A stretch of DNA of 64,000 nucleotides from Dehalococcoidia bacterium (lineage in GTDB: Bacteria > Chloroflexota > Dehalococcoidia > UBA2979): NCBI GenBank assembly GCA_965219085.1, contig OZ244720.1:864001-928000 (forward strand), in the 5' to 3' direction. A program made the translations under genes and the position numbers. The notes under the pieces were generated by a model, which saw nothing but the letters and a program-made list of their open reading frames with translations, ran no database searches and had not been told where the DNA came from. This document shows positions 11,715 to 34,779 of the stretch, piece after piece; position 1 is the first letter of the stretch; each line of letters begins with the position of its first letter.

Positions 11715-13007
11715 CAGGGTGCTGAAAAAGGCGCGGCCATCTGGCAGGATAGCGAAGGCGGCGGGGGCGTAGCCTGGGAGGCAGCCCCGTGCGAGGCGAC
11801 GCCGAGCGCCAGACCAACATGTTGCTGGCGGTGACGCCGGACTCCTTCATCCCGGACGACCACCCGATCCGACGCATCAAGCCGATCGTCGATGCAGCGC
11901 TGCAGCGGCTCTCGCCGCTCTTCGGCACGATGTACGCAACGAGCGGGCGGCCCTCGATCCCGCCCGAGCACCTGCTCAAGGCGAGCCTGCTGATCGCGCT
12001 CTACTCGATCCGCAGCGAGCGCCAGTTCTGCGAGCGGCTGCGCTACGACCTGCTCTTCAAGTGGTTCTTGGACCTCAACATCTCAGACGCGCCGTTCGAC
12101 GCCTCGAGCTTCTCGAAGAACCGCGAGCGCCTGCTCGCAGCCGATGTCGCGCGCGCCTTCTTCGCCGAGGTGGTGGCCGAGGCAAAGCGCCGCCGGCTGC
12201 TCTCCGCCGAGCACTTCACCGTGGACGGGACGCTGCTGGAGGCCTGGGCCTCGCTCAAGAGCTACCGCCCGCGCGACGGGCAGGAGCCACCCCCGGGCGG
12301 ACGCAACCCGGACGTGGACTTCCGCGGGCGGCGGCGCAGCCGCGATACGCATAGCTCCGGCACCGACCCGCAGGCGCAGCTGTACACAAAGGGAGCGGGG
12401 CAGACGGCGAAACTGAGCTACATGGGCCATCTGCTCACCGAGAACCGTCACGGCCTGGTGCTGGACGTGGAGTTGACCGAGGCGAACGGGTACGCCGAGC
12501 GCGAGGCCGCGGTCACGATGCTGGAGCGCAGCGTGAGCGGCTGCGGGACGCTGGGCGCCGACCGCGGCTACGACACGCGCGACTTCGTGGCGGAACTGCG
12601 CGCGCGCGGCGTGACGCCGCACGTGGCGCAAAACGACCGCGGCCGCCGCAGCGCCGTGGACGGGCGCACCACGCGGCATCGCGGCTACAGGCAGAGTCAG
12701 CAGCGGCGCAAGATCGTGGAGCAGGTCTTCGGCTGGATGAAGACCGTGGGCGGCGGGCGCAAGCTGCGTTTCGTGGGCCGCGAGCGCAACCGCGGCTGGC
12801 TGGAGCTCACCGCCGCCGCCTACAACCTCGTGCGCATGGCCAGGCTCGAACTCGCCCCTGCGTAGGCGCAGTGCGCCCTCCGGCCGGTCCGGGAGCCCTC
12901 AGAGGCCCCCGGGGGCAGGTCAGGAGGCCACCATCACGAAGCCGGAGGCGGCTTCAAGCCGCCTCTCGCCACTCCGAGACCCCGGAAGGCGCTTCTTCAG
13001 CACCCTG
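11715..13007 (+). mobile_element. IS5-family element, copy 1 (1293 bp)
   Basis: Terminal IR CAGGGTGCTGAA. CTAG duplicated at 11711-11714 and 13008-13011. Inserted in the last codons of the PIN gene. Confidence 0.95.
11789..12865 (+). CDS. IS5-family DDE transposase
   Basis: GRPSIPPEHLLKA (InsH N-terminal domain), FTVDGT, LGADRGYD, RKIVEQVFGWMK. Confidence 0.95.
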   Translation: MRGDAERQTNMLLAVTPDSFIPDDHPIRRIKPIVDAALQRLSPLFGTMYATSGRPSIPPEHLLKASLLIALYSIRSERQFCERLRYDLLFKWFLDLNISDAPFDASSFSKNRERLLAADVARAFFAEVVAEAKRRRLLSAEHFTVDGTLLEAWASLKSYRPRDGQEPPPGGRNPDVDFRGRRRSRDTHSSGTDPQAQLYTKGAGQTAKLSYMGHLLTENRHGLVLDVELTEANGYAEREAAVTMLERSVSGCGTLGADRGYDTRDFVAELRARGVTPHVAQNDRGRRSAVDGRTTRHRGYRQSQQRRKIVEQVFGWMKTVGGGRKLRFVGRERNRGWLELTAAAYNLVRMARLELAPA

Positions 13008-23685: not shown

Positions 23686-25650
23686 TCATCCGGCTCCTCC
23701 GCGAAGTCCAGGGCTGGTCAGATCCCGGTGCGAAACGGGGGGTGTGCCGGGGACGCAGCTCCAAGGCTCGCGCTGCATGAGGGTACCGTCGGCGTCGGTG
23801 CCGGCCCAGCTGGCGCTGGCCGGCTCGATCTCGCGGCAATGCTCGATCTTCGCTGTCCTGACGCACTTCCCGTCGAGGACGTAGCTCGTGGCGGACGCGA
23901 CCTTGTGCATCGTTTCGTCCAACGCGATGCGATCGGTCGCGTACATGCCCATCCGCATTTCGTCATCCATCTCGTCGTCGAACGGCCGGCCAAACGCGGC
24001 TTCCGCGTCGGTAACGTCATATAGCAGCACGTGCTCCACGGTGTGGCCCTCGACGATCACGGCGACCCAGCGAACCTGCACGCCGCCGATCTCCACCAAC
24101 CGTTCGGTGACCGATGCCACCTTGCGCACGTCCCTCGGCTCGGGTTCGTAGACGAGGAGCCCGAGCACAAGCTCGTACAGGTCGTCCGCCATCGACGTGA
24201 TCTCATCAGCCATCGTGAGTTGCTCGCGCCACGCGGCCGGAATGCCGTCGACCCCGTAGTACGCCCCGGCGATCTGACCGTAGATCGCGGCAGTCGTATC
24301 GGCGTCGCCGCCGAGGTTCGCCGCGAGCAGGGCGCCTTCGCGGAAGTTGTCCGAGTGGTGGAACGCCCAGAGCGCCGCCTCGATCGACCGAACGACGTAA
24401 CCGGTGCCCCTGATCTCCGGCGGGTTGCGATTCTTGAAGGAGCCGTTGGCGATGCGGGCAATCGCCTCCACCAGCGGATGGCTCTCCCATAACCCCTCGA
24501 CAGGGCAGTAGCCAGCGGAGAGGAGCGTCTCCTTGCCGACGTCACCAAGCGCGCCGACGAGCAGGCCGGCGAAGTAGCGGCAGGCGTCGACCGCCTCCCG
24601 CGCCCCGTGCGTCGTCCGGGAACTATCTGCCGCCTTGGTGATGGCATCGGCCGGGTGGCCCCAGTAGTACATCGGGACCGGCGCAAGCCGCATGAGGGAG
24701 CCGTTCCCCGCGGTCTGCGAGTCCGTGGAACCGGCGTACGGGTCGGCGTCCCGCTCGAAGCGAGACAGCGCATCCCTCACCGTGGTCCCGATGTCGAAGC
24801 ACCGGCCTGTGGAGGACAGGTAGCCCTCCCGCCACCACCGCACGTAACGCTCCATCTGGTCGGTGGGGTCGAAGCCCTTCTGTTCGATCAGGCTTGTCGC
24901 GAGGCACAGTGCCATCGACGTATCGTCGGTCCACTGGCCGGGCTTCAGTCCGAACGGGCCGCCGCCGACCATGTCGTCGATCGCTTCGAACGTGCCCGGC
25001 GGCTGGAACTCGAGCGTGGTGCCGAGGGCGTCGCCCGCAGCCAGACCGAGCAGGCAGCCCCGGAATCGATCCAGTGTGGTGATCTCACTCATTGGGCTCT
25101 CCTCCGGTGAAGGCTCCGTCCATTCGCGGACGTAGCGGAACTGCTCGGATGTCTCGGGCGACTGCGGCTTGCGGCGGGCCTTCGCGACTCCCTGCCACCA
25201 CTCCGCGAGCTGTCTCAGCGCCTCGTCGCCCGTCCGCCCGTGCCGTACCAGCCAGCAGCCGACGACGGTGCCGGTCCGTCCGACCCCGCCCCAGCAGTGG
25301 AGGTAGACGGTCCCTTCTTCGTCCAGAGCGTCGTCGATGGCGTCGAGGATGTCGGCCATCTCCTGGGGGCTGCCGGGCACGCCCACGTCGACGATCGAAT
25401 GCCGCTCATGCGCGACGTCCATGCCAAGACCGTCGGCTTCCGCTTCGGCGATGTCGGTGTATGGCTCCAGCCCTTCGCTGGGCTCGGTCAGATCGATGAA
25501 GTGGTCGATGCCCGCGCTCAGCAGCGTGCGGAGCCTGGCTGCGGCCTCGTTGCGGTGCTTGTCGCCCGGGTACTCGCCGGCGGCGAAGCGGCCGGGGACG
25601 ACCCAGTAGCTGTTGGGGATCGGGCGATCAGAGCTGCCTGCGGGGTTCAA
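23686..25650 (-). CDS. Fusion of dual-specificity/tyrosine phosphatase + ADP-ribosylglycohydrolase (DraG/ARH) + unknown C-terminal domain
   Basis: HCWGGVGRTG (CX5R). GDALG, WTDDTSM, GNGSLMR, GGDADTTAAI. GGAGGT RBS before TTG 25650. Confidence 0.9.
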   Translation of the reverse strand: MNPAGSSDRPIPNSYWVVPGRFAAGEYPGDKHRNEAAARLRTLLSAGIDHFIDLTEPSEGLEPYTDIAEAEADGLGMDVAHERHSIVDVGVPGSPQEMADILDAIDDALDEEGTVYLHCWGGVGRTGTVVGCWLVRHGRTGDEALRQLAEWWQGVAKARRKPQSPETSEQFRYVREWTEPSPEESPMSEITTLDRFRGCLLGLAAGDALGTTLEFQPPGTFEAIDDMVGGGPFGLKPGQWTDDTSMALCLATSLIEQKGFDPTDQMERYVRWWREGYLSSTGRCFDIGTTVRDALSRFERDADPYAGSTDSQTAGNGSLMRLAPVPMYYWGHPADAITKAADSSRTTHGAREAVDACRYFAGLLVGALGDVGKETLLSAGYCPVEGLWESHPLVEAIARIANGSFKNRNPPEIRGTGYVVRSIEAALWAFHHSDNFREGALLAANLGGDADTTAAIYGQIAGAYYGVDGIPAAWREQLTMADEITSMADDLYELVLGLLVYEPEPRDVRKVASVTERLVEIGGVQVRWVAVIVEGHTVEHVLLYDVTDAEAAFGRPFDDEMDDEMRMGMYATDRIALDETMHKVASATSYVLDGKCVRTAKIEHCREIEPASASWAGTDADGTLMQREPWSCVPGTPPVSHRDLTSPGLRGGAG

Positions 25651-26769: not shown

Positions 26770-27758
26770 GTTGCTTCCTGCCAGCCGGAGGGCGTCTCGA
26801 CCCGCCGCGTCGACGACCTCGTGCGCTCGCTCGGCTGTGAGGGCATCTCGAAAAGAGCCAGGTCTCGAGGATCTGCGCAGAGCTCGACACGGTCGTCGCG
26901 AGCTTCCTCGGCCGGCCGCTCGACGGCGGTCCCTACCCCTACCTGTGGCTCGACGCGCTCACGCAGCGGGTGCGCGAGGAGGGCCGCATCGCTCAGGTCA
27001 GCCCTGCGGGGTATCCCCGCGTACGCGGGAAGGGTGGTCGCCACCGCGGTCAACGCCGAGGGCAAGCGCGAGGTGCTGGGCATCGACGTCGGCACCAGCG
27101 AGGACGGGGCGTTCTGGCTAGCGTTTCTGCGCGGGCTCGTGGCACGAGGGCTCTCCGGTGTGGAGTTGGTGACCTCCGACGCCCTCAGGGCCTCAAGGAG
27201 GCGATCGCGACTGTCTTCGGCGGCGCCTCGTGGCAGCGCTGCCGCACGCACTTCATGAGGAATCTGCTGACGCGCGTGCCGAAGAGCGCCGAGGCGCTGG
27301 TGGCGACGACGGTGCGCACGATCTATCAGCAGCCGTCGGCGGAGGCGGTGCACGCCCAGCACGCCCGGGTGGTGGAGCAGCTGGACGCGCGCTTCCCCGA
27401 TGCCGCGGTCATGCTCGCCGACGCGGCCGCGGAGATACTGGCGTTCACGGCCTTCCCGGTCGCGCACTGGAAACAGGTCTGGTCGAACAACCCGCTGGAG
27501 CGGCTCAACAAGGAAATCCGCCGGCGCACCAACGTGGTCGGCATCTTCCCCAACCGCGCCGCGGTGGTCCGGCTGGTCGGCGCCGTGCTCGCCGAGCAGC
27601 ACGACGAGTGGGCGGTCGCGAGGCGCTACATGACGATGGTGACGCTGCTGCCCCCGCCGGGGCTCACGGCCGCGTCAGGCGAGGAGGTGCTGCTGCAGGC
27701 TGCCAGCTAGCAATTGATAAGGATGGTGCACTGTGACACCACCTTGCGGGACGTGACC
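26770..27758 (+). mobile_element. IS256-family remnant (5'-truncated, frameshifted mutator transposase)
   Basis: EGVSTRRVDDLV, YPYLWLDA, GKREVLG, WQRCRTHF, SNNPLERLNKEIRRR in different frames. IS256-like right end ...ACACCACCTTGCGGGACGTGACC. Confidence 0.85.
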
Positions 27759-27895
27759 GGCGCATCCTCGCCCGCGCCCACCAGATGGCATGAGGGCCGG
27801 TCTCCTCCTCAAGGGGGGATACTCGCCCCCGAAACAGCGGCCTCGATGGGCCAGAACGGCTCTCTGCGGAGCCTTGACGAGGTAGGAGACCGGCC

Positions 27896-28984
27896 ATGCA
27901 GCAGGATATCGCAACGACGCGGAGCATCGAGGGCAGGGATGGGCCTGCGTTCACCGTCGGCCTCGACGTAGGAGACCGCTACATCCACGTCTGCGTCCTC
28001 GGCAGCGGCGGCGAGGTGGTGCGCGAGCGGCGCGTCCGCACCACGGCGGCGGCGCTCGGCGGCGCACTGGAGGACCTTCCGCCGGCGCGGGTCGTGCTCG
28101 AGGCGGGGCCGCGCTCGCCGTGGCTGAGCCGCGTCGTGGCGGATCTCGGCCACGAGGCGGTCGTCGCCAACCCTCGCCAGGTCGCGCTGATCGCCCGCAG
28201 CCAGCGCAAGACCGACCGCCTCGACGCCGCATGGCTGGCGCGGCTGGGGCGCTTCGACCCGGAGTTGCTCGCCCCGATCCGCCACCGCAGCGAGCAGAGC
28301 CAGCATGACCTCGCCGTGGTGCGCGCCCGCGACGCGCTGGTGCGCTCGCGCACGCTGCTCATCAACCACATGCGCGGGGCCGTCAAGGCCTGCGGCGCCG
28401 CGCTGCCGTCGTGCACGGCCGAGGCCTTCCACCGCAAGGCGGCGGAGCACATCCCCGATGGGCTGCGCCCGGCGCTGCTGCCGCTGGTGGAGGCGATCGG
28501 CGAGCTGACCGCGCGTATCGCGGCGGCCGGGCGGGAGGTCGAGGCGTTGTGCGAGGCCCACCCCGAGACCGCGGCGCTGCGCCAGGTCACCGGCGTGGGG
28601 CCGATCACCGCGCTCACGTTCGTGCTGACGATCGAGAACCCGGGGCGCTTCCCGAAGAACCGGGAGGTGGGGGCCTACCTCGGGCTCGTACCGCGGCAGC
28701 GCGAGTCTGGAGAGCGCGCGCCACAGCTCCGGATCAGCAAGAGCGGCGACGCGGGCTTGCGGCGGCTGCTGGTGCAGGCCGCGCACTACATCCTCGGTGC
28801 CTTCGGACCCGATACCGACCTGCGCCGCTGGGGTGAGCGCTACGCGGGAACAGGGGCGGGCAACGCGAAGAAGCGCGCGGTTGTGGCTGTCGCACGACGG
28901 CTGGCGGTGCTGCTGCTCGCGCTGTGGAAGACAGGGGAGTTCTACGAGCCGCTGCGCCACGCCGTGGCCCGCGAGGCCGCGTAG
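27896..28984 (+). CDS. IS110-family DEDD recombinase/transposase (intact)
   Basis: VGLDVG, VVLEAG, KTDRLDA, GVGPITA, YLGLVPRQRESG, ISKSGD..LRRLL. AGGAG RBS. Confidence 0.95.
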   Translation: MQQDIATTRSIEGRDGPAFTVGLDVGDRYIHVCVLGSGGEVVRERRVRTTAAALGGALEDLPPARVVLEAGPRSPWLSRVVADLGHEAVVANPRQVALIARSQRKTDRLDAAWLARLGRFDPELLAPIRHRSEQSQHDLAVVRARDALVRSRTLLINHMRGAVKACGAALPSCTAEAFHRKAAEHIPDGLRPALLPLVEAIGELTARIAAAGREVEALCEAHPETAALRQVTGVGPITALTFVLTIENPGRFPKNREVGAYLGLVPRQRESGERAPQLRISKSGDAGLRRLLVQAAHYILGAFGPDTDLRRWGERYAGTGAGNAKKRAVVAVARRLAVLLLALWKTGEFYEPLRHAVAREAA

Positions 28985-29059
28985 CGGGGAGGCGCCGCCG
29001 CCGCCGGCGCAGCAGACCCGGAGATCAGGAAGGAAGACCCGATCGCGAACGAAGCCACG

Positions 29060-29212
29060 CACGTGATGCCGAACACGGGCGACTGCGGCCGAGCTGCTGT
29101 CCCATCGAGGACGTCCACCAGCTGGCAGCGCCCCCTGGAAGCAGGATGTGCCTTCATGCACCGGGCCCGATGCGCGGCCCACAGACGAGTGCGGATAGAA
29201 GCTCGGCACAGG
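29060..29212 (+). ncRNA. Predicted bridge/seek RNA of the IS1111-type element
   Basis: Two internal loops closed by stems. Loop 1 strands CGAGCTGCTG (29090-99) and CCACCAGC (29115-22) match both strands of the target. Loop 2 strands TGCCTTC (29149-55) and ATAGAAG (29195-201) match the donor junction. Boundaries approximate. Confidence 0.8.
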
Positions 29213-29243
29213 CTCCTCTGTTCGGAGATAACGCGCAGGCGCG

Positions 29244-29397
29244 AGGTGGATGAGGCGCCACGCCGCCCGGGCAGGGAGGCCGCCACGTCGGCCTTGCAGA
29301 TCAGACCGTCCCTCATAGAAGGTGGATGAGGCGCCACGCCGCCCGGGCAGGGAGGCCGCCACGTCGGCCTTGCAGATCAGACCGTCCCTCATAGAAG
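29244..29397 (+). repeat. Perfect 76-bp tandem duplication of the IS right end
   Basis: AGGTGGATGAGGCGCC...CCGTCCCTCATAGA starts at 29244 and again at 29320. Confidence 0.95.
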
Positions 29398-30631
29398 CAG
29401 CTCGTCCGGGACCGCACCCGCCAGACCAAATCTGTACGTGGGTGATGACTGGGCCGAGGAGCACCACGATGTCCACCTCATGAACGAAGTGGGCGGACAG
29501 CTTGCTGCCAGGCAGTTGCCGGAGGGGGTTCGGGGCGTTACCGCGCTGCACGAACTGCTCGCGCAGCATGCATCAGAACCGGGCGAGGTCGTCATCGGTA
29601 TCGAGACCGACCGTGGGCCGTGGGTGTCCTCATTGCTCGCCGCCGGCTACCGCGTCTACGCAGTCAACCCGCGCTCAGTGGCCCGCTATCGCGACCGTCA
29701 CCACGTCGGCGGCGCGAAGTCCGATGCCGGCGACACGAAGCTCTTGGCCGACCTGGTACGCACGGACCGTCACAACCACCGCGAGGTCGCCGGCGACACC
29801 GACGAGGCTGCGGCTGTGCGCATCCTCGCACGCGCCCACCAGCAGTTTATTTGGGACCGCACGCGACAAACCAATCGGCTCCGCAACGGGCTCCGAGAGT
29901 ATTTCCCGGCGGCCCTGGAGGCCTTCCACGACCTCGCTCACGGCGACGCGGTGGGCGTGCTGGCAACGGCCCCGGACCCGCGCGCGGCGGCGCGGCTGAC
30001 CATGCCGCAGATCCGGGCCGCCCTCCGTCGAGGTGGCCGCCAGCGGTACATCGACCGCCGCGCCACCGAGATCCGCGACGCGCTGCGATCCCCGCAGCTC
30101 GAGGTGGCGCCCGTGGTGAGCAGTGCGTTCGCCGCGACCACCAGCGCGGTGGTAGGCCAGATCGGCCAGATCAATCATCGGATTAAGGAACTCGAGGCTG
30201 AACTGGCGAGCCATTTTGAGCAGCACCCGGACGCCACGATCTACCGCTCCATGCCCGGACTCGGTGTCGTGCTCGGCGCCCGGGTGCTCGGCGAGTTCGG
30301 GGATGACCCCGAACGCTACGAGTCGGCGAAGTCCGCAGGAACTACGCCGGCACCTCGCCGCTCACCGTAGCATCGGGGCGCAAGCGCACCGTGAAGGCCC
30401 GCTTCATCCGCAACCGGCGGCTCTCCGACGCCGCCAACCACTGGGCGATGTGCTCGCTGCGCGCGAGCCCGGCTTGCCGCGAGTTCTACGACCCGCGGCG
30501 CGCCGCCGGCGACCTGCACCACCAGGCGCTGCGTGCCCTCGGCAACCGCCTCGTCGGCTACCTCCATGGCTGCCTCAGGAATTGCACCCTCTACGACGAG
30601 GCCATCGCCTGGGCCCACCGTTCGGCTCTAG

Positions 30632-31924
30632 CAGGGTGCTGAAGAAGCGCCTTCCGGGGTCTCGGAGTGGCGAGAGGCGGCTTGAAGCCGCCTCCGGCTT
30701 CGTGATGGTGGCCTCCTGACCTGCCCCCGGGGGCCTCTGAGGGCTCCCGGACCGGCCGGAGGGCGCACTGCGCCTACGCAGGGGCGAGTTCGAGCCTGGC
30801 CATGCGCACGAGGTTGTAGGCGGCGGCGGTGAGCTCCAGCCAGCCGCGGTTGCGCTCGCGGCCCACGAAACGCAGCTTGCGCCCGCCGCCCACGGTCTTC
30901 ATCCAGCCGAAGACCTGCTCCACGATCTTGCGCCGCTGCTGACTCTGCCTGTAGCCGCGATGCCGCGTGGTGCGCCCGTCCACGGCGCTGCGGCGGCCGC
31001 GGTCGTTTTGCGCCACGTGCGGCGTCACGCCGCGCGCGCGCAGTTCCGCCACGAAGTCGCGCGTGTCGTAGCCGCGGTCGGCGCCCAGCGTCCCGCAGCC
31101 GCTCACGCTGCGCTCCAGCATCGTGACCGCGGCCTCGCGCTCGGCGTACCCGTTCGCCTCGGTCAACTCCACGTCCAGCACCAGGCCGTGACGGTTCTCG
31201 GTGAGCAGATGGCCCATGTAGCTCAGTTTCGCCGTCTGCCCCGCTCCCTTTGTGTACAGCTGCGCCTGCGGGTCGGTGCCGGAGCTATGCGTATCGCGGC
31301 TGCGCCGCCGCCCGCGGAAGTCCACGTCCGGGTTGCGTCCGCCCGGGGGTGGCTCCTGCCCGTCGCGCGGGCGGTAGCTCTTGAGCGAGGCCCAGGCCTC
31401 CAGCAGCGTCCCGTCCACGGTGAAGTGCTCGGCGGAGAGCAGCCGGCGGCGCTTTGCCTCGGCCACCACCTCGGCGAAGAAGGCGCGCGCGACATCGGCT
31501 GCGAGCAGGCGCTCGCGGTTCTTCGAGAAGCTCGAGGCGTCGAACGGCGCGTCTGAGATGTTGAGGTCCAAGAACCACTTGAAGAGCAGGTCGTAGCGCA
31601 GCCGCTCGCAGAACTGGCGCTCGCTGCGGATCGAGTAGAGCGCGATCAGCAGGCTCGCCTTGAGCAGGTGCTCGGGCGGGATCGAGGGCCGCCCGCTCGT
31701 TGCGTACATCGTGCCGAAGAGCGGCGAGAGCCGCTGCAGCGCTGCATCGACGATCGGCTTGATGCGTCGGATCGGGTGGTCGTCCGGGATGAAGGAGTCC
31801 GGCGTCACCGCCAGCAACATGTTGGTCTGGCGCTCGGCGTCGCCTCGCACGGGGCTGCCTCCCAGGCTACGCCCCCGCCGCCTTCGCTATCCTGCCAGAT
31901 GGCCGCGCCTTTTTCAGCACCCTG
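30632..31924 (-). mobile_element. IS5-family element, copy 2 (1293 bp, inverted relative to copy 1)
   Basis: Same IRs. CTAG at 30628-30631 and 31925-31928. Confidence 0.95.
30774..31850 (-). CDS. IS5-family transposase
   Basis: Protein identical to 11789-12865 in the ORF track. Confidence 0.95.
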   Translation of the reverse strand: MRGDAERQTNMLLAVTPDSFIPDDHPIRRIKPIVDAALQRLSPLFGTMYATSGRPSIPPEHLLKASLLIALYSIRSERQFCERLRYDLLFKWFLDLNISDAPFDASSFSKNRERLLAADVARAFFAEVVAEAKRRRLLSAEHFTVDGTLLEAWASLKSYRPRDGQEPPPGGRNPDVDFRGRRRSRDTHSSGTDPQAQLYTKGAGQTAKLSYMGHLLTENRHGLVLDVELTEANGYAEREAAVTMLERSVSGCGTLGADRGYDTRDFVAELRARGVTPHVAQNDRGRRSAVDGRTTRHRGYRQSQQRRKIVEQVFGWMKTVGGGRKLRFVGRERNRGWLELTAAAYNLVRMARLELAPA

Positions 31925-31967
31925 CTAGAACAACCCGCCGCTTGACGGCTTAGGACCATGGGATGTC

Positions 31968-32104
31968 TACGCCCGCCCCTACTGCTCCAATGCCGAACGT
32001 CTGCACCAGCTCCCGCGCTGGCTCTACCGCTACAATGCTCGCCGACCGCACGGCGGCATTGGCGGGGCCGTCCCCGCCTCACGCCTGTAAACAACCTAAC
32101 TACA
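31968..32104 (+). mobile_element. IS481-family 3' remnant
   Basis: Reads YARPYCSNAERLHQLPRWLYRYNARRPHGGIGGAVPASRL* (stop 32088-90), then an end in ...AACAACCTAACTACA. Confidence 0.75.
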
Positions 32105-32554
32105 GCTGTAGCCGCGCAGTCCTGACCTCTCCCGAGACGCCAACGCACGCAGCTCGGGCCAAGAGCCCACCTGTGAGCGCCTGGAGTTGCGCGGGTGCGC
32201 GCGCGCCGAGCGACGAACCGGCGGCGGACAGCGACAGCGAGCGGGGGTCAGCAGCCGCACGCACGCGCCATCGCGACCTCGCTCGGCTGCCACTTGAGGA
32301 CCGCCATCGCGCGCTCGGCGACACCCTCATCATCGTCGACGCGGACGAAACGGAGGCCTGGGACACGATCGCGGACGAACTGGACTGGCGGGCCTCGGGC
32401 GGCAAGCGCTCGTGCCAATTCAAGCCTCGTCGGTCGGCGCTCAACGCTACACTCGTGCCCCGGGAGATCGAGGGCACCTCGCGCACGCGCTGATTCAGCG
32501 TGGGGAACACGGGCCCATTACCGTCTCGCGCGATCCGCGCAGAAGTCAACCGCA

Positions 32555-32962
32555 CCAGGATCCGGCGGACGGTCCAACTGCTCACGTCCAGGCCCTCGTG
32601 CTCCCAGAGCAGCTCGGCGAGGTGGGTGTGGTTCGCTCCCGGGTAGCGGGTGGTGGCGAAGCGCACCACGGCCGAGGCGACGCCGGCCGGGACGGCGTTG
32701 TGCGGACGGCGCCCGCGGTCGCCGTGCTCCAGCGACGCGGGTCCGCGCGCGCGGTAGGCGGCGAGGAGCCGCCACGCGTGTCGCTCGCTGATGCCCAGGA
32801 ACTCGGCGGCCTGCGAGGCCTGCAGATCTCCGGCCATCACCCTGTCGAGTACGTAGCGTCGTGGTGCTTCGGACTGCTGCACTGTCACCCCCCTGCTCGC
32901 TGGCTGGGGACTGACAGATTCGCTGCTCCGTTAGCTACTGACGGAATCGCTGACCGTCGACA
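32555..32962 (-). mobile_element. ISNCY (IS1202-like) left end and N-terminal transposase fragment
   Basis: QAAEFLGISERHAWRLLAAYRARG...HGDRGRRPHN...HLAELL..TVRRIL. TGT terminus at 32962 with repeated ACTGAC(A/G)GA(T/A)TCGCTG motifs at 32910 and 32937. Confidence 0.75.
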
Positions 32963-33620
32963 CAAGCGGCGCTCGGATAATGATCCCCCGTGGGGACGTG
33001 TCCCAGCATTTCCGGCGGCGGGGCCGCGGAAGGTTGGGGGAGGGGATGCTCCGAGTGGAAGACGTGTATGTGGTACGGCACAAGGTGCTGGTCGAAGGCC
33101 TGAGCCGGCGGCAGGCCACCCGGGCGATGGGGACCAGCCGCAACACCGTCCGCAGCTACCTGACGCTGGCCGAGCTGGTGCGGGTCGCCCTCGACCTGCG
33201 GCGGAAGCCGGTCCTCGAACGGGTTCAGCCGCGCCTCGAGGCGCGGCTGGAGGAGTGGTCGGGGCGCACGACGGCGAAGCAGCGGCTGACGGCGACGAGG
33301 CTGCACCGCCAGTTGCGCGAGGGGGCTACGAGGTCCGGGACACGCTGGTGCGGGACTACCTGCGCCAGTGCCGACGCCAGCGTGCCGAGGTGTTCGACAA
33401 CCTCAAGCCGGCGGTGCGGACGGCCGCTGCTGCGCCCCGAGCCCGGTGCCCCGTTCGAGGCGCGGCGGGTACGGGCGGTCTCGGTGAGCGGCAGCGCGCT
33501 GGTGCGCGTCGAGGGGGCCCGGTACTCGGCGCCGAGCCGCTGGGCGGGCCTGCGGGCGACGGCGCTGATCGGCACCGACGAGCTGACGCTGCGCTGCCGC
33601 GGCGAGGAGGTCGCGCACCC
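32963..33620 (+). mobile_element. IS21-family IstA remnant with internal deletions
   Basis: MLRVEDVYVVRHKVLVEGLSRRQ...SRNTVRSYL (ATG 33046), KQRLTATRLH, FDNLKPAV, VRVEGARYSAP. Confidence 0.8.
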
Positions 33621-33657
33621 CCCGGTAGCCCTTCGGCGGCCGCCGGGTGGACTAACC

Positions 33658-34779
33658 TGTCCTATCACCGAGTCAAGGCGACAGGTGCCGGCCTTCTGAA
33701 ATAGGGGCCAGGCGGTACATCCTGCTGTGTGTTGCAGCACAGGAAGGATCTCCGCCATGACCCCCGAAGACGTACTGTACCGCCAGCGACTGCGCACGTT
33801 CGCGCTCGCCGAGGAGCTCGGCAGCGTCCGGGCCGCCTGCCGGGTGATGGGCATCCACCACTCGACGTTCTATCGCTGGAAGGCCCAGGCCGAGCGCTAC
33901 GGCCTGGAGCTGCCGCGGCCCCGCGAGCGCCGCCAGCCGCGCATGCCCAACGCCACCAGTCCGCTCGTCGAGCAGCGCGTCGTGGCCTTCGCCCTCGGCC
34001 AGCCCGGCTTCGGACCTGCGCGCATCGCCGCCGAGTTGGCGCGGCCCAAGTGGGGCGGCATCCGGCTCTCCCACAACGGGGTCTGGCGCATCCTCAAGCG
34101 CCACGCCTCAACACCCGCCGCAAGCGCCTCGGCCTCGTCGCCGGCTACGCAGCTCCTCCCGAGCCAACACCCCCCGAACCGCAGCCCGAGCGCCACCTGG
34201 AGGCCTCCAGGCCCGGAGAACTGGTGCAGTTCGACTGTTTCCACGTCGGACGGCTCTCCGGCGCCAGGGGCACCGTCTGGCAGTACACGGCCATCGACGT
34301 CGCCTCCGCCTACACCTGGGCTGAGCTGCACACCACCCCGCGCAACCCGTCGGCGAAGTGGACCTCGCACCTCGCCCGCCGCGTTGCCGCCGGCCTCGCC
34401 GCCCGCGGCTGGGAGCTCGAGACCGTGATGACCGACAACGGATCAGAGTTCCGTTCGCATGTCTTCGGCGAGACGGTCGCCGCCCGCGGCGCCCGCCAGC
34501 GCTTCATCCACGCCGGCAGGCCCCAGACCAACGGCTGCGTCGAGCGGGTGCAGGGCACGATCCTCGAGGAGTGCTGGAAGCCGTCCTTCGCGCGCCACCT
34601 CATCCCGAAGCAGACAGGTCTCCGCAACGACCTCGTGCGCTACCTGGACTACTACAACACCGACCGCGCCCACACCGGCCGCTGGACGCGCGGCCGCACC
34701 CCCGAGAGCGTGATCGGCAAGGCCAAGCTATGGTCGTGACGCACAGCCCGATGTGTCGGCAGATCCCGGTGACAGGACA
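33658..34779 (+). mobile_element. IS481-family element (1122 bp); transposase 33757-34739 with one frameshift near 34105
   Basis: IR TGTCCTATCACCG / CGGTGACAGGACA. 8-bp direct repeat GACTAACC at 33650-57 and 34780-87. PGELVQFD, MTDNGSEF, PQTNGCVER. Confidence 0.9.

What the first reader, a model, noticed from the sequence alone, without database searches (positions are those of the whole stretch)
27761..29430. RNA-guided IS1111-type element whose target is the coding sequence of another IS110-family transposase
Seen: joining the flanks at the AG core gives cgcatcctcgcccgcgcccaccAGcagctcgtccgggaccgcacccgccagaccaa, which reads RILARAHQQLVRDRTRQT. This is homologous to RILARAHQQFIWDRTRQT in the neighbouring GDDWAE-type IS110 transposase (29819-29874). 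The element's own guides match this site on both strands, so the insertion looks programmed. Established: IS110/IS1111 recombinases use bridge/seek RNAs, and some target other mobile DNA (attC sites, Tn21 ends, REPs). Inference: an IS110-on-IS110 hyperparasite that knocks out a sister bridge recombinase.
Basis: partly seen in the sequence, partly recalled or inferred. Interest (0 to 1): 0.85.

Follow-up and report, generated by a model that had tools for sequence, protein, structure and literature searches.

The report
RNA-guided IS family colonising other ISs
An intact IS1111-type insertion sequence sits exactly where its own guide RNA segments point, in a leftover piece of another IS's transposase gene, and its sister copies in the same genome carry different guides and sit in the transposase genes of three other IS families.

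Summary
Window 27785-29397 is an intact 1613-bp IS1111-type element. It has a 362-aa DEDD transposase, subterminal inverted repeats, a 413-bp downstream non-coding region and an AG core at both junctions. Two short segments of that region (29088-29098 and 29114-29124) match the right and left flanks on opposite strands. The flanks rebuild a 56-bp remnant of an IS110-family transposase gene, 44-49 of 54 bases identical to 33 family copies from the genus. One full-length copy in a congener carries the exact 16-base site, unoccupied.

The wider picture changes the interpretation. The genome holds ten sister copies (86-91% identical) on the same RNA scaffold with other guide pairs. They sit in IS1380-, IS5- and IS3-family transposase genes. 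Congeners add further guide variants aimed at IS21 istA/istB, ISNCY, IS110 left ends and IS5-type terminal repeats. So this is not specifically IS110-on-IS110. It is a programmable IS lineage that uses other mobile elements as landing pads, and nested copies ride along when the host IS moves.

A knock-out function is not shown, and the window copy is a singleton in a relic. There is precedent in IS1383 in IS1384 repeats and IS4321/IS5075 in Tn21 repeats. I rate it a new variant of a known kind.

The parts
27761..27784 (+). Left part (24 bp) of the remnant of an IS110-family transposase gene. The AG core is at 27783-27784.
   Evidence: Homology to the IS256-type relic on the left ends at about 27758-27760.
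27785..29397 (+). IS1111-type insertion sequence, 1613 bp (equivalently 27783-29395 if the AG is counted with the left end)
   Evidence: There are ten related copies in the genome with the same ends.
27790..27803 (+). Left subterminal inverted repeat (14 bp), preceded by a terminal extension
   Evidence: Read. It pairs 13 of 14 with 29379-29392.
27896..28984 (+). Transposase gene, 362 aa, DEDD RuvC-like domain plus Transposase_20 domain
   Evidence: Pfam PF01548 and PF02371. NCBIfam NF033542 'IS110 family RNA-guided transposase' at 244.7 bits, cutoff 140.
28985..29397 (+). Downstream non-coding region (413 bp) that should give the seekRNA / bridge RNA
29077..29135 (+). Predicted target-binding module: outer stem 29077-29087 with 29125-29135, right-flank guide 29088-29098, inner hairpin 29099-29113, left-flank guide 29114-29124
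   Evidence: The scaffold is invariant and the guides hypervariable in 14 subfamilies.
29141..29215 (+). Putative donor-binding module. Segment 29193-29202 repeats the last bases of the right end.
   Evidence: One position co-varies with the right end in the L/M/I clade. The left-end guide is not resolved.
29246..29397 (+). Perfect 76-bp tandem duplication of the right end (29246-29321 and 29322-29397). The unit starts just after an internal AG.
   Evidence: TRF: period 76, 2.0 copies, 100% match, reported span 29244-29397. Two right-end motifs found.
29379..29392 (+). Right subterminal inverted repeat, followed by a 5-bp extension ending in the AG core
   Evidence: Read
29398..29429 (+). Right part (32 bp) of the IS110-family gene remnant
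29433..30622 (+). Neighbouring IS110-type relic. ORF 29438-30370 carries only the DEDD domain, its frame is broken near residue 304, and it lacks the 258-bp left non-coding region of its six relatives. The site homologous to the target is 29819-29872.
26788..27760 (+). IS256-family relic that cuts the target remnant on the left (C-terminal transposase ORF 26970-27710)
30628..31928 (-). Intact IS5-family element (transposase 30774-31850). It carries an unoccupied exact site for the C-type sister element at 31370-31384.

Best explanation
Window 27785-29397 is a functional-looking member of the IS1111 group of the IS110 family. Its transposase should use an RNA made from the downstream non-coding region. 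In that RNA an internal loop carries two guide segments. The first pairs with the top strand of the right target half. The second pairs with the bottom strand of the left target half, and both overlap the AG core where strands are exchanged. The element therefore inserted by programmed recombination into a 14-16-base site in the coding sequence of an IS110-family transposase. It belongs to a young radiation in this genus in which one conserved protein-plus-RNA scaffold carries many different guide pairs. The lineages that survive and multiply are those whose guides hit other mobile elements. Such sites are multi-copy, harmless to the host, conserved by the host IS's own needs, and themselves mobile. 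Inactivation of the host IS is a consequence, not a demonstrated purpose. Shown: the anatomy, the guide-flank complementarity, the target identities, and the riding of nested copies. Inferred: that the RNA is made and used, and the selective reason.
For: (1) Family features. DEDD plus Transposase_20 domains and NF033542 above its cutoff. Subterminal repeats pairing 13 of 14, 7/3 terminal extensions, and a long non-coding region downstream (compared with the definitions read). Guide order is top-strand complement first, as stated for IS1111 seekRNAs. (2) Eleven copies in the genome, and 11 of 11 have an open full-length transposase frame. Ten of the 11 carry guides that match their own flanks. 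(3) Four guide types and four targets. A: an IS110 gene remnant. B: an IS1380 transposase gene (NF033539, 334.8 bits). C: an IS5 transposase gene (NF033581, 254 bits). D: an IS3 transposase gene at a conserved rve motif (NF033516, 191.3 bits). (4) Every exact genomic match of the C site (6 of 6) and the D site (10 of 10) lies in a copy of the same IS family. (5) Matrix control: the cognate target scores best in 12 of 12 rows, 14.8 against 6.8. (6) The scaffold differs on average 22.5 of 134 positions between subfamilies, against 6.9 of 11 and 4.6 of 9 in the guides. B and G share one guide, and D and K share the other. (7) Congeners carry further guide types in IS21 istA, istB (Walker B region), ISNCY genes and ends, and IS110 left non-coding regions. 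(8) Three copies of a nest (IS5 element holding a C-type copy and an IS110-type copy) lie at three different loci with complete IS5 terminal repeats. (9) An exact unoccupied A-type 16-mer exists in a full-length IS110 gene of a congener (L096).
Against: No RNA, circle junction or transposition was observed. Rfam has no family for this region, and the sequencing runs gave only contigs. The stems around the guides never vary among the 14 sequences, so covariation neither supports nor refutes the fold; only 3 of 30 predicted pairs show compensatory change. The A type is a singleton in a relic, so its activity and its real target range are unknown. Not all copies obey their guides. One copy with B-type guides sits in a C-type site. 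Of 5 sampled G-type copies, only 1 is in istB, 2 sit in K-type sites, 1 is in a peptidase-like host gene, and 1 lies between an IS3-like stretch and a host gene. Three subfamilies (L, M, I) have unresolved or host-like targets. Repeats make up 16.3% of this genome and copies are kin, so enrichment in IS is partly an ascertainment effect.
Confidence: 0.8

Rival explanations
1. One reading: the element is a dedicated hyperparasite or weapon whose selected function is to knock out competing IS110-type (or other) transposases. It might even benefit the host by lowering IS load.
For: Insertions interrupt transposase reading frames in the B, C and D targets and in istA, istB and ISNCY genes of congeners. 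IS110-type elements are hit three times in different places: the coding sequence (A) and the left non-coding region (N and E). Half of the C-type sites are occupied (6 occupied, 6 exact empty sites).
Against: Nothing shows a fitness effect. Many intact target copies remain (10 empty D sites against 1 occupied). Disrupted host IS copies still move with help in trans, as the three nests show, so the host IS family is not silenced. Some targets are terminal repeats or upstream regions rather than catalytic motifs. The A copy sits in a 56-bp relic.
Confidence: 0.1
2. The copies reached their present sites mainly by homologous recombination, gene conversion or duplication of whole nests rather than by guide-directed insertion. 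The guide-flank match would then reflect only a few old events.
For: Three C-type copies share identical nests. Two more share the same group II intron insert. One copy is a mosaic of D-like and B-like sequence with non-cognate guides. Some J-type copies carry a foreign left flank.
Against: Each of the four guide types in the genome, and at least eight more in congeners, fits its own flanks at the exact junction. That requires at least one directed insertion per type. The A type has one copy and one site.
Confidence: 0.07
3. The flank match or the homology to IS110 genes is a chance resemblance in GC-rich DNA.
For: Only 56 bp of the target remain. GC-rich genomes give many open frames.
Against: 44-49 of 54 bases are identical to 33 family copies. 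There are 0 other exact 14-mers in the genome. The cognate target scores best in 12 of 12 matrix rows.
Confidence: 0.02

Closest known systems
IS1111-family elements with seekRNA (ISEc11, ISKpn4, ISPst6, ISPa11; Siddiquee et al. 2024, PMC11187229: abstract, introduction, one results section and passages read)
   Same: DEDD transposase, subterminal inverted repeats, 7/3 terminal extensions, non-coding region downstream of tnp, two target-matching segments with the top-strand complement first, and natural reprogramming between close relatives (ISEc11 / ISXne4).
   Different: The known targets named in the text I read are a short linear site, attC sites and REP sequences. Here the targets are coding sequences, ends and non-coding regions of other IS families. 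At least 14 guide types share one scaffold within one genus.
IS1383 inserting into the inverted repeats of IS1384 (Muller, Lauf, Herrmann 2001; only the title seen, in the reference list of PMC11208160)
   Same: An IS110-family element whose specific target lies inside another insertion sequence.
   Different: That target is the terminal repeat of one IS. Only the K-type relatives in congeners resemble this. The window element and its three sister types target transposase coding sequence.
IS4321 / IS5075 targeting terminal repeats of Tn21-family transposons (Partridge and Hall 2003; title seen in a reference list)
   Same: IS1111-family members that live in another mobile element.
   Different: One fixed target in transposon ends, not a set of reprogrammed guides against several IS families.
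IS621 bridge RNA (Durrant et al. 2024, PMC11208160: abstract and passages read)
   Same: Two-loop logic, with an internal loop whose two sides read the two target halves around a dinucleotide core, and a second module for the element's own ends.
   Different: In IS621 the RNA is encoded upstream, the core is CT and the natural targets are REP elements. Here the RNA region is downstream and the core is AG.
ISPpu9 modular structure (PMC12288879: abstract and passages read)
   Same: AG core, and duplicated end boxes that allow alternative circles.
   Different: ISPpu9 is an IS110-group element in REP sequences. Here the duplicated modules are right ends or whole RNA regions of an IS1111-type element.

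Membership tests
IS1111 group of the IS110 family | DEDD (RuvC-like) transposase with the C-terminal Transposase_20 domain | tested here: met
   PF01548 (E 6.9e-21) and PF02371 (E 3.9e-21). NF033542 at 244.7 bits, cutoff 140.
IS1111 group of the IS110 family | Subterminal inverted repeats of about 11-13 bp, perfect or near perfect | tested here: met
   27790-27803 against 29379-29392 pair 13 of 14. The same ends occur in all copies.
IS1111 group of the IS110 family | Asymmetric terminal extensions, 7 bp left and 3 bp right | tested here: met
   With the AG counted on the left (27783-27789 and 29393-29395) the extensions are 7 and 3 (definition read).
IS1111 group of the IS110 family | Long non-coding region downstream of tnp | tested here: met
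   413 bp downstream against 111 bp upstream.
IS1111 group of the IS110 family | seekRNA with one segment complementary to each target strand, top-strand complement first | tested here: met
   In the DNA, 29088-29098 comes first and 29114-29124 second. The RNA itself was not observed.
IS1111 group of the IS110 family | Circular intermediate with abutted ends; RNA bound to the transposase | not testable with these tools
   Only contigs were available from public runs.
IS1111 group of the IS110 family | One specific site and one orientation per element type | tested here: met
   Within each of types B, C and D, all copies lie at the same position and in the same orientation in their host gene. 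The exception is one copy whose guides do not fit its site.
IS-in-IS specialists (IS1383 / IS1384 type) | Target is the terminal inverted repeat of the host element | tested here: not met
   Types A-D lie inside coding sequence. Only the K type of congeners fits IS5-type terminal repeats.
   Reading frames are interrupted in types B, C and D. Nests still moved and many intact host copies remain.

The most novel reading that the evidence does not exclude
This genus harbours an IS1111 lineage that lives almost only inside other mobile elements. Its guide pairs would be retargeted one half-site at a time onto conserved motifs, ends and even the bridge-RNA regions of at least six IS families. It would spread both by its own RNA-guided insertion and by riding in host IS copies that are mobilised in trans. 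Its guides would also work in trans on sister elements. If selection really favours this, it is a natural RNA-guided 'transposon of transposons' that shapes, and may restrain, the IS load of the genome.
Probability: 0.25. Interest if true: 0.8.

Novelty: new variant of a known kind. Interest (0 to 1): 0.6.

Why it matters
First, it gives a natural series of at least 14 guide-target pairs on one nearly invariant protein and RNA scaffold. That is useful for learning the targeting rules of IS1111-type recombinases: guide length, register at the core, and tolerated mismatches. Second, shared half-guides between subfamilies, and copies sitting in another subfamily's site, bear on an open question: how these elements change target in nature. 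Third, it shows RNA-guided elements building layered nests. In one case a group II intron lies inside an IS1111-type copy, which lies inside an IS5 element. This matters for reading IS-rich genomes and for assembly and annotation.

Tried and rejected
Rfam with permissive thresholds found no family for the non-coding region. The only solid hit was Ms_AS-4 inside the neighbouring IS110 gene.

Public runs. 20 of 24 listed runs hold part of the stretch. Four were laid and all were contigs broken by repeats. Contigs from two RNA libraries cover parts of 27760-29037. The tool itself warns that this does not show transcription, so I draw nothing from it. No empty-site or circle joint was seen, which proves nothing.

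The metagenome scan with the transposase gave 62 loci, all at most 61% identical. Only 4 of the 62 had a recognisable scaffold and none had A-type guides.

I first read the flank of the E type as IS21 istA-like. Pfam did not support that. It showed an istB fragment on one side and an IS110-type transposase about 150 bp downstream.

I tried to assign the guide for the left end of the element in the second RNA module. The K and H types change the left end without a matching change in the RNA, so I leave it unresolved.

Targets of types L, M and I stay unclassified.

Supplementary files were not consulted. The target logos and tables of PMC11187229 and Supplementary Table 1 of PMC11208160 may already list IS genes as targets. 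My statement that coding-sequence targets in other IS are not described rests only on four text searches and the passages read.

No structure prediction, complex prediction or large protein search was run. The family assignments did not need them.
Full report
**What is at the coordinates**

Reading the window and listing ORFs shows a compact element from 27785 to 29397.
- It begins just after an AG (27783-27784) and ends in an AG (29396-29397).
- It carries 14-bp subterminal inverted repeats (27790-27803 and 29379-29392) that pair 13 of 14.
- It holds one 362-aa ORF (27896-28984), with 111 bp of non-coding DNA upstream and 413 bp downstream.
- The ORF has the DEDD_Tnp_IS110 and Transposase_20 domains. 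It passes NCBIfam's 'IS110 family RNA-guided transposase' model at 244.7 bits against a cutoff of 140.
- The last 76 bp are perfectly duplicated in tandem.

These features fit the definition of the IS1111 group that I read in the introduction of PMC11187229. The 7/3 terminal extensions fit too, if the AG is counted with the left end.

**The flanks**

The 24 bp to the left and the 32 bp to the right were joined in a script.

I sampled 33 gene copies of this IS110 clade from 30 loci in 8 genomes of the genus.
- The rebuilt 54 bases are 44-49 of 54 identical to them.
- The left 8 bases of the guide-covered 16-mer have 0 mismatches in 24 copies and 1 mismatch in 9 copies.
- The right 8 bases have 0 mismatches in 1 copy, 2 in 15 copies and 3 in 17 copies.
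- The single exact, unoccupied site is in a full-length gene of a congener (L096).

The remnant is only about 56 bp long. An IS256-family relic ends at about 27760. From 29433 onward lies an IS110-type relic. It has a broken frame and lacks the 258-bp left non-coding region that its six 82.6%-identical relatives possess. The whole stretch from about 26.0 to 34.8 kb is a pile of IS fragments.

**The guides**

Aligning the downstream regions of the genome's copies shows an invariant scaffold with two hypervariable segments. In the window these are 29088-29098 and 29114-29124.
- The second segment repeats the left flank through the AG (8 contiguous bases).
- The reverse complement of the first repeats AG plus the right flank (9 contiguous bases).

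A consensus fold of 14 subfamily representatives places the two segments on opposite sides of an internal loop, between an outer stem and a small hairpin. This is the layout of a target-binding loop. The stems never vary, so covariation says nothing either way. Only 3 of 30 predicted pairs, all in the second module, show compensatory changes.

The order (top-strand complement first) is the one stated for IS1111 seekRNAs.

The second module contains a copy of the right-end sequence. That copy changes together with the right end in one clade. I could not settle the left-end guide.

**Is the match more than chance?**

The 14-base site covered by the guides has no other exact copy in the 3.3-Mb genome. 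In a matrix built from stored files for 12 subfamilies with defined flanks, the cognate target scored highest in 12 of 12 rows. Cognate pairs averaged 14.8. The 132 non-cognate pairs averaged 6.8, with a maximum of 12 for a pair that shares one half-site.

**Sister copies in the same genome**

A DNA search found 18 matches, of which 11 are near full length at 86-100% identity. All 11 have an open, full-length transposase frame. By ends and flanks they fall into four types.
- **A:** the window copy, 1 copy.
- **B:** 3 copies, one truncated on the right, in the C-terminal part of an IS1380-family transposase gene (PF13701; NF033539).
- **C:** 6 copies, in an IS5-family transposase gene between its DUF772 and DDE domains.
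- **D:** 1 copy, in an IS3-family gene at a conserved motif of the integrase core domain.

Each type has its own guide pair that fits its own junction.

Counts of exact empty sites in the genome:

| Type | Exact empty sites | Location of those sites |
|---|---|---|
| A | 0 | none found |
| B | 0 | 3 one-mismatch sites lie in the same IS family |
| C | 6 | all 6 in IS5-family copies |
| D | 10 | all 10 in IS3-family copies |

Two of the empty C sites lie in the window, at 12255-12269 and 31370-31384.

Repeats of 300 bp or more cover 16.3% of the genome. Four independent specificities all landing in IS genes is therefore unlikely by chance. Copies are kin, though, and only successful lineages are seen.

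**Exceptions and dynamics**

- One copy at a C-type site carries B-type guides and is a mosaic of D-like and B-like sequence. Either a C-type RNA guided it in trans, which is possible because all types share the same ends, or recombination replaced its interior.
- Three C-type copies lie in identical nests: an IS5 element that holds the C-type copy and, 130 bp away, an IS110-type copy. The nests sit at three different loci with complete IS5 terminal repeats and different outer flanks. The nested element was therefore carried along when the disrupted IS5 copy moved or was copied.
- Two further C-type copies share a 930-bp insert in their right end, which Rfam identifies as an ORF-less group II intron.
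- Extra right ends or whole RNA modules in tandem occur in types A, B, D and H. In A, B and D, the types I checked, each starts after an internal AG. This recalls the modular ends of ISPpu9.

**Relatives**

The transposase matches at E 1e-60 or better in 7 of 61 genomes searched, G000 included. That is 5 of 18 other genomes of the genus and 1 genome of another genus of the family. I examined 41 loci from those 6 other genomes.

| Type | Where its cognate site lies |
|---|---|
| J | N-terminal part of an IS21 istA-type gene |
| G | Walker B region of an istB gene in 1 of 5 sampled copies |
| H | inside an ISNCY-family transposase gene |
| F | four codons upstream of an ISNCY-family transposase gene |
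| N | left non-coding region of an IS110-type element; aligns along the own genome's copy |
| E | a palindrome about 150 bp upstream of an IS110-type transposase gene |
| K | about 30 copies in one genome by protein class, 6 sampled; sites resemble the terminal repeat of the IS5-family element |
| B variants | the same IS1380 site in two congeners |
| M | beside a group II intron reverse transcriptase; unresolved |
| L | next to host-like genes; unresolved |
| I | flanks unresolved |

The other four sampled G-type copies are mis-sited. Two sit in K-type sites, one in a peptidase-like gene, and one next to an IS3-like stretch.

No locus outside the window region carries A-type guides.

**How retargeting may proceed (inference)**

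Between subfamilies the scaffold differs at 22.5 of 134 positions on average. The guides differ at 6.9 of 11 and 4.6 of 9 positions. B and G share an identical left guide. D and K share the right guide but for one base. A and G differ at 3 of 11 positions in the right guide on a nearly identical scaffold. Together with the mis-sited copies, this fits change of one half-site at a time, helped by tolerance of half-matched sites.

**Comparison with what is known**

RNA-guided targeting by IS1111 and IS110 elements, and natural reprogramming between close relatives, are established (PMC11187229, PMC11208160). Targets inside other mobile DNA are also known: attC sites, Tn21-family terminal repeats, and the inverted repeats of IS1384 for IS1383. 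For the last two I saw only the titles in reference lists.

In four text searches and the passages I read, I found no description of IS110-family elements aimed at transposase coding sequences. Nor did I find one scaffold radiating onto several IS families in one genome. Supplementary tables were not available to me and may hold such cases.

**Verdict**

The element is a new member of the IS1111 group.

The interesting part is larger than the finding. It is a guide-swapping lineage that colonises other mobile elements. The 'knock-out of a sister recombinase' is an effect in some copies, not a shown function, and the window copy itself sits in a relic. I rate it a new variant of a known kind, interest 0.6.

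Noticed in passing
G000 C1: 1202647-1204142 and five more copies; window relative at 29433-30622: A 1496-bp IS110-group element with a 258-bp left non-coding region occurs six times. Five of the six sit at one and the same position of the IS5-family transposase gene, 130 bp from the C-type site. A second, unrelated RNA-guided IS therefore also targets this IS gene.
   Followed up: partly
G000 C1: about 1202036-1206363, 1799390-1805356, 3274433-3278759: Three copies of a nest (an IS5 element holding a C-type IS1111 copy and the IS110-group copy) have complete IS5 terminal repeats and different outer flanks. One of them additionally holds an IS1380-family element. This suggests the broken IS5 was mobilised in trans with its passengers.
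   Followed up: partly
L011 3021-3933 (G000 C1 1859035-1859947), and the same insert near 1972906-1973818: An ORF-less group II intron (Rfam RF02003 at 95.1 bits and RF00029 at 44.8 bits, minus strand) is inserted in the right end of two C-type copies. That gives three levels of nesting.
   Followed up: partly
window 29246-29397; G000 C1 1261336-1261394; 2850006-2850740; L048: Tandem extra right ends, and in the D-type copy a second whole RNA module, are appended to the element. In the A, B and D copies, which I checked, each repeat starts right after an internal AG. This looks recombinase-made and may allow alternative circles.
   Followed up: partly
G000 C1 340397-341913; L026 and L039 (G017): Some copies have guides that do not fit their site. 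One has B-type guides in a C-type site, and two have G-type guides in K-type sites. Guiding in trans by a sister element's RNA, or recombination between copies, would explain them.
   Followed up: partly
L025 (G004), L053 and L055 (G013), L064 (G012): Elements of different guide types share one foreign left flank plus a 9-base insert and an altered first dinucleotide. This suggests exchange of left ends or rearrangements between copies.
   Followed up: no
window 30250-30331 (-): Rfam Ms_AS-4 (an actinobacterial antisense sRNA) matches at 64.4 bits inside the neighbouring IS110-type gene. This probably just reflects conservation of that coding region.
   Followed up: no
window 12255-12269 (+) and 31370-31384 (-): Two intact IS5-family elements in the window carry exact, unoccupied sites for the C-type sister element.
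   Followed up: yes
window 32100-33699: There are fragments of an ISNCY-type transposase (32100-32888, minus strand) and an IS21 istA-type gene (32980-33699). The latter seems to contain the motif that J-type elements target in a congener.
   Followed up: no
window 23686-25650 (-): A 654-aa ORF lies just upstream of the IS pile. It was not examined beyond its translation.
   Followed up: no
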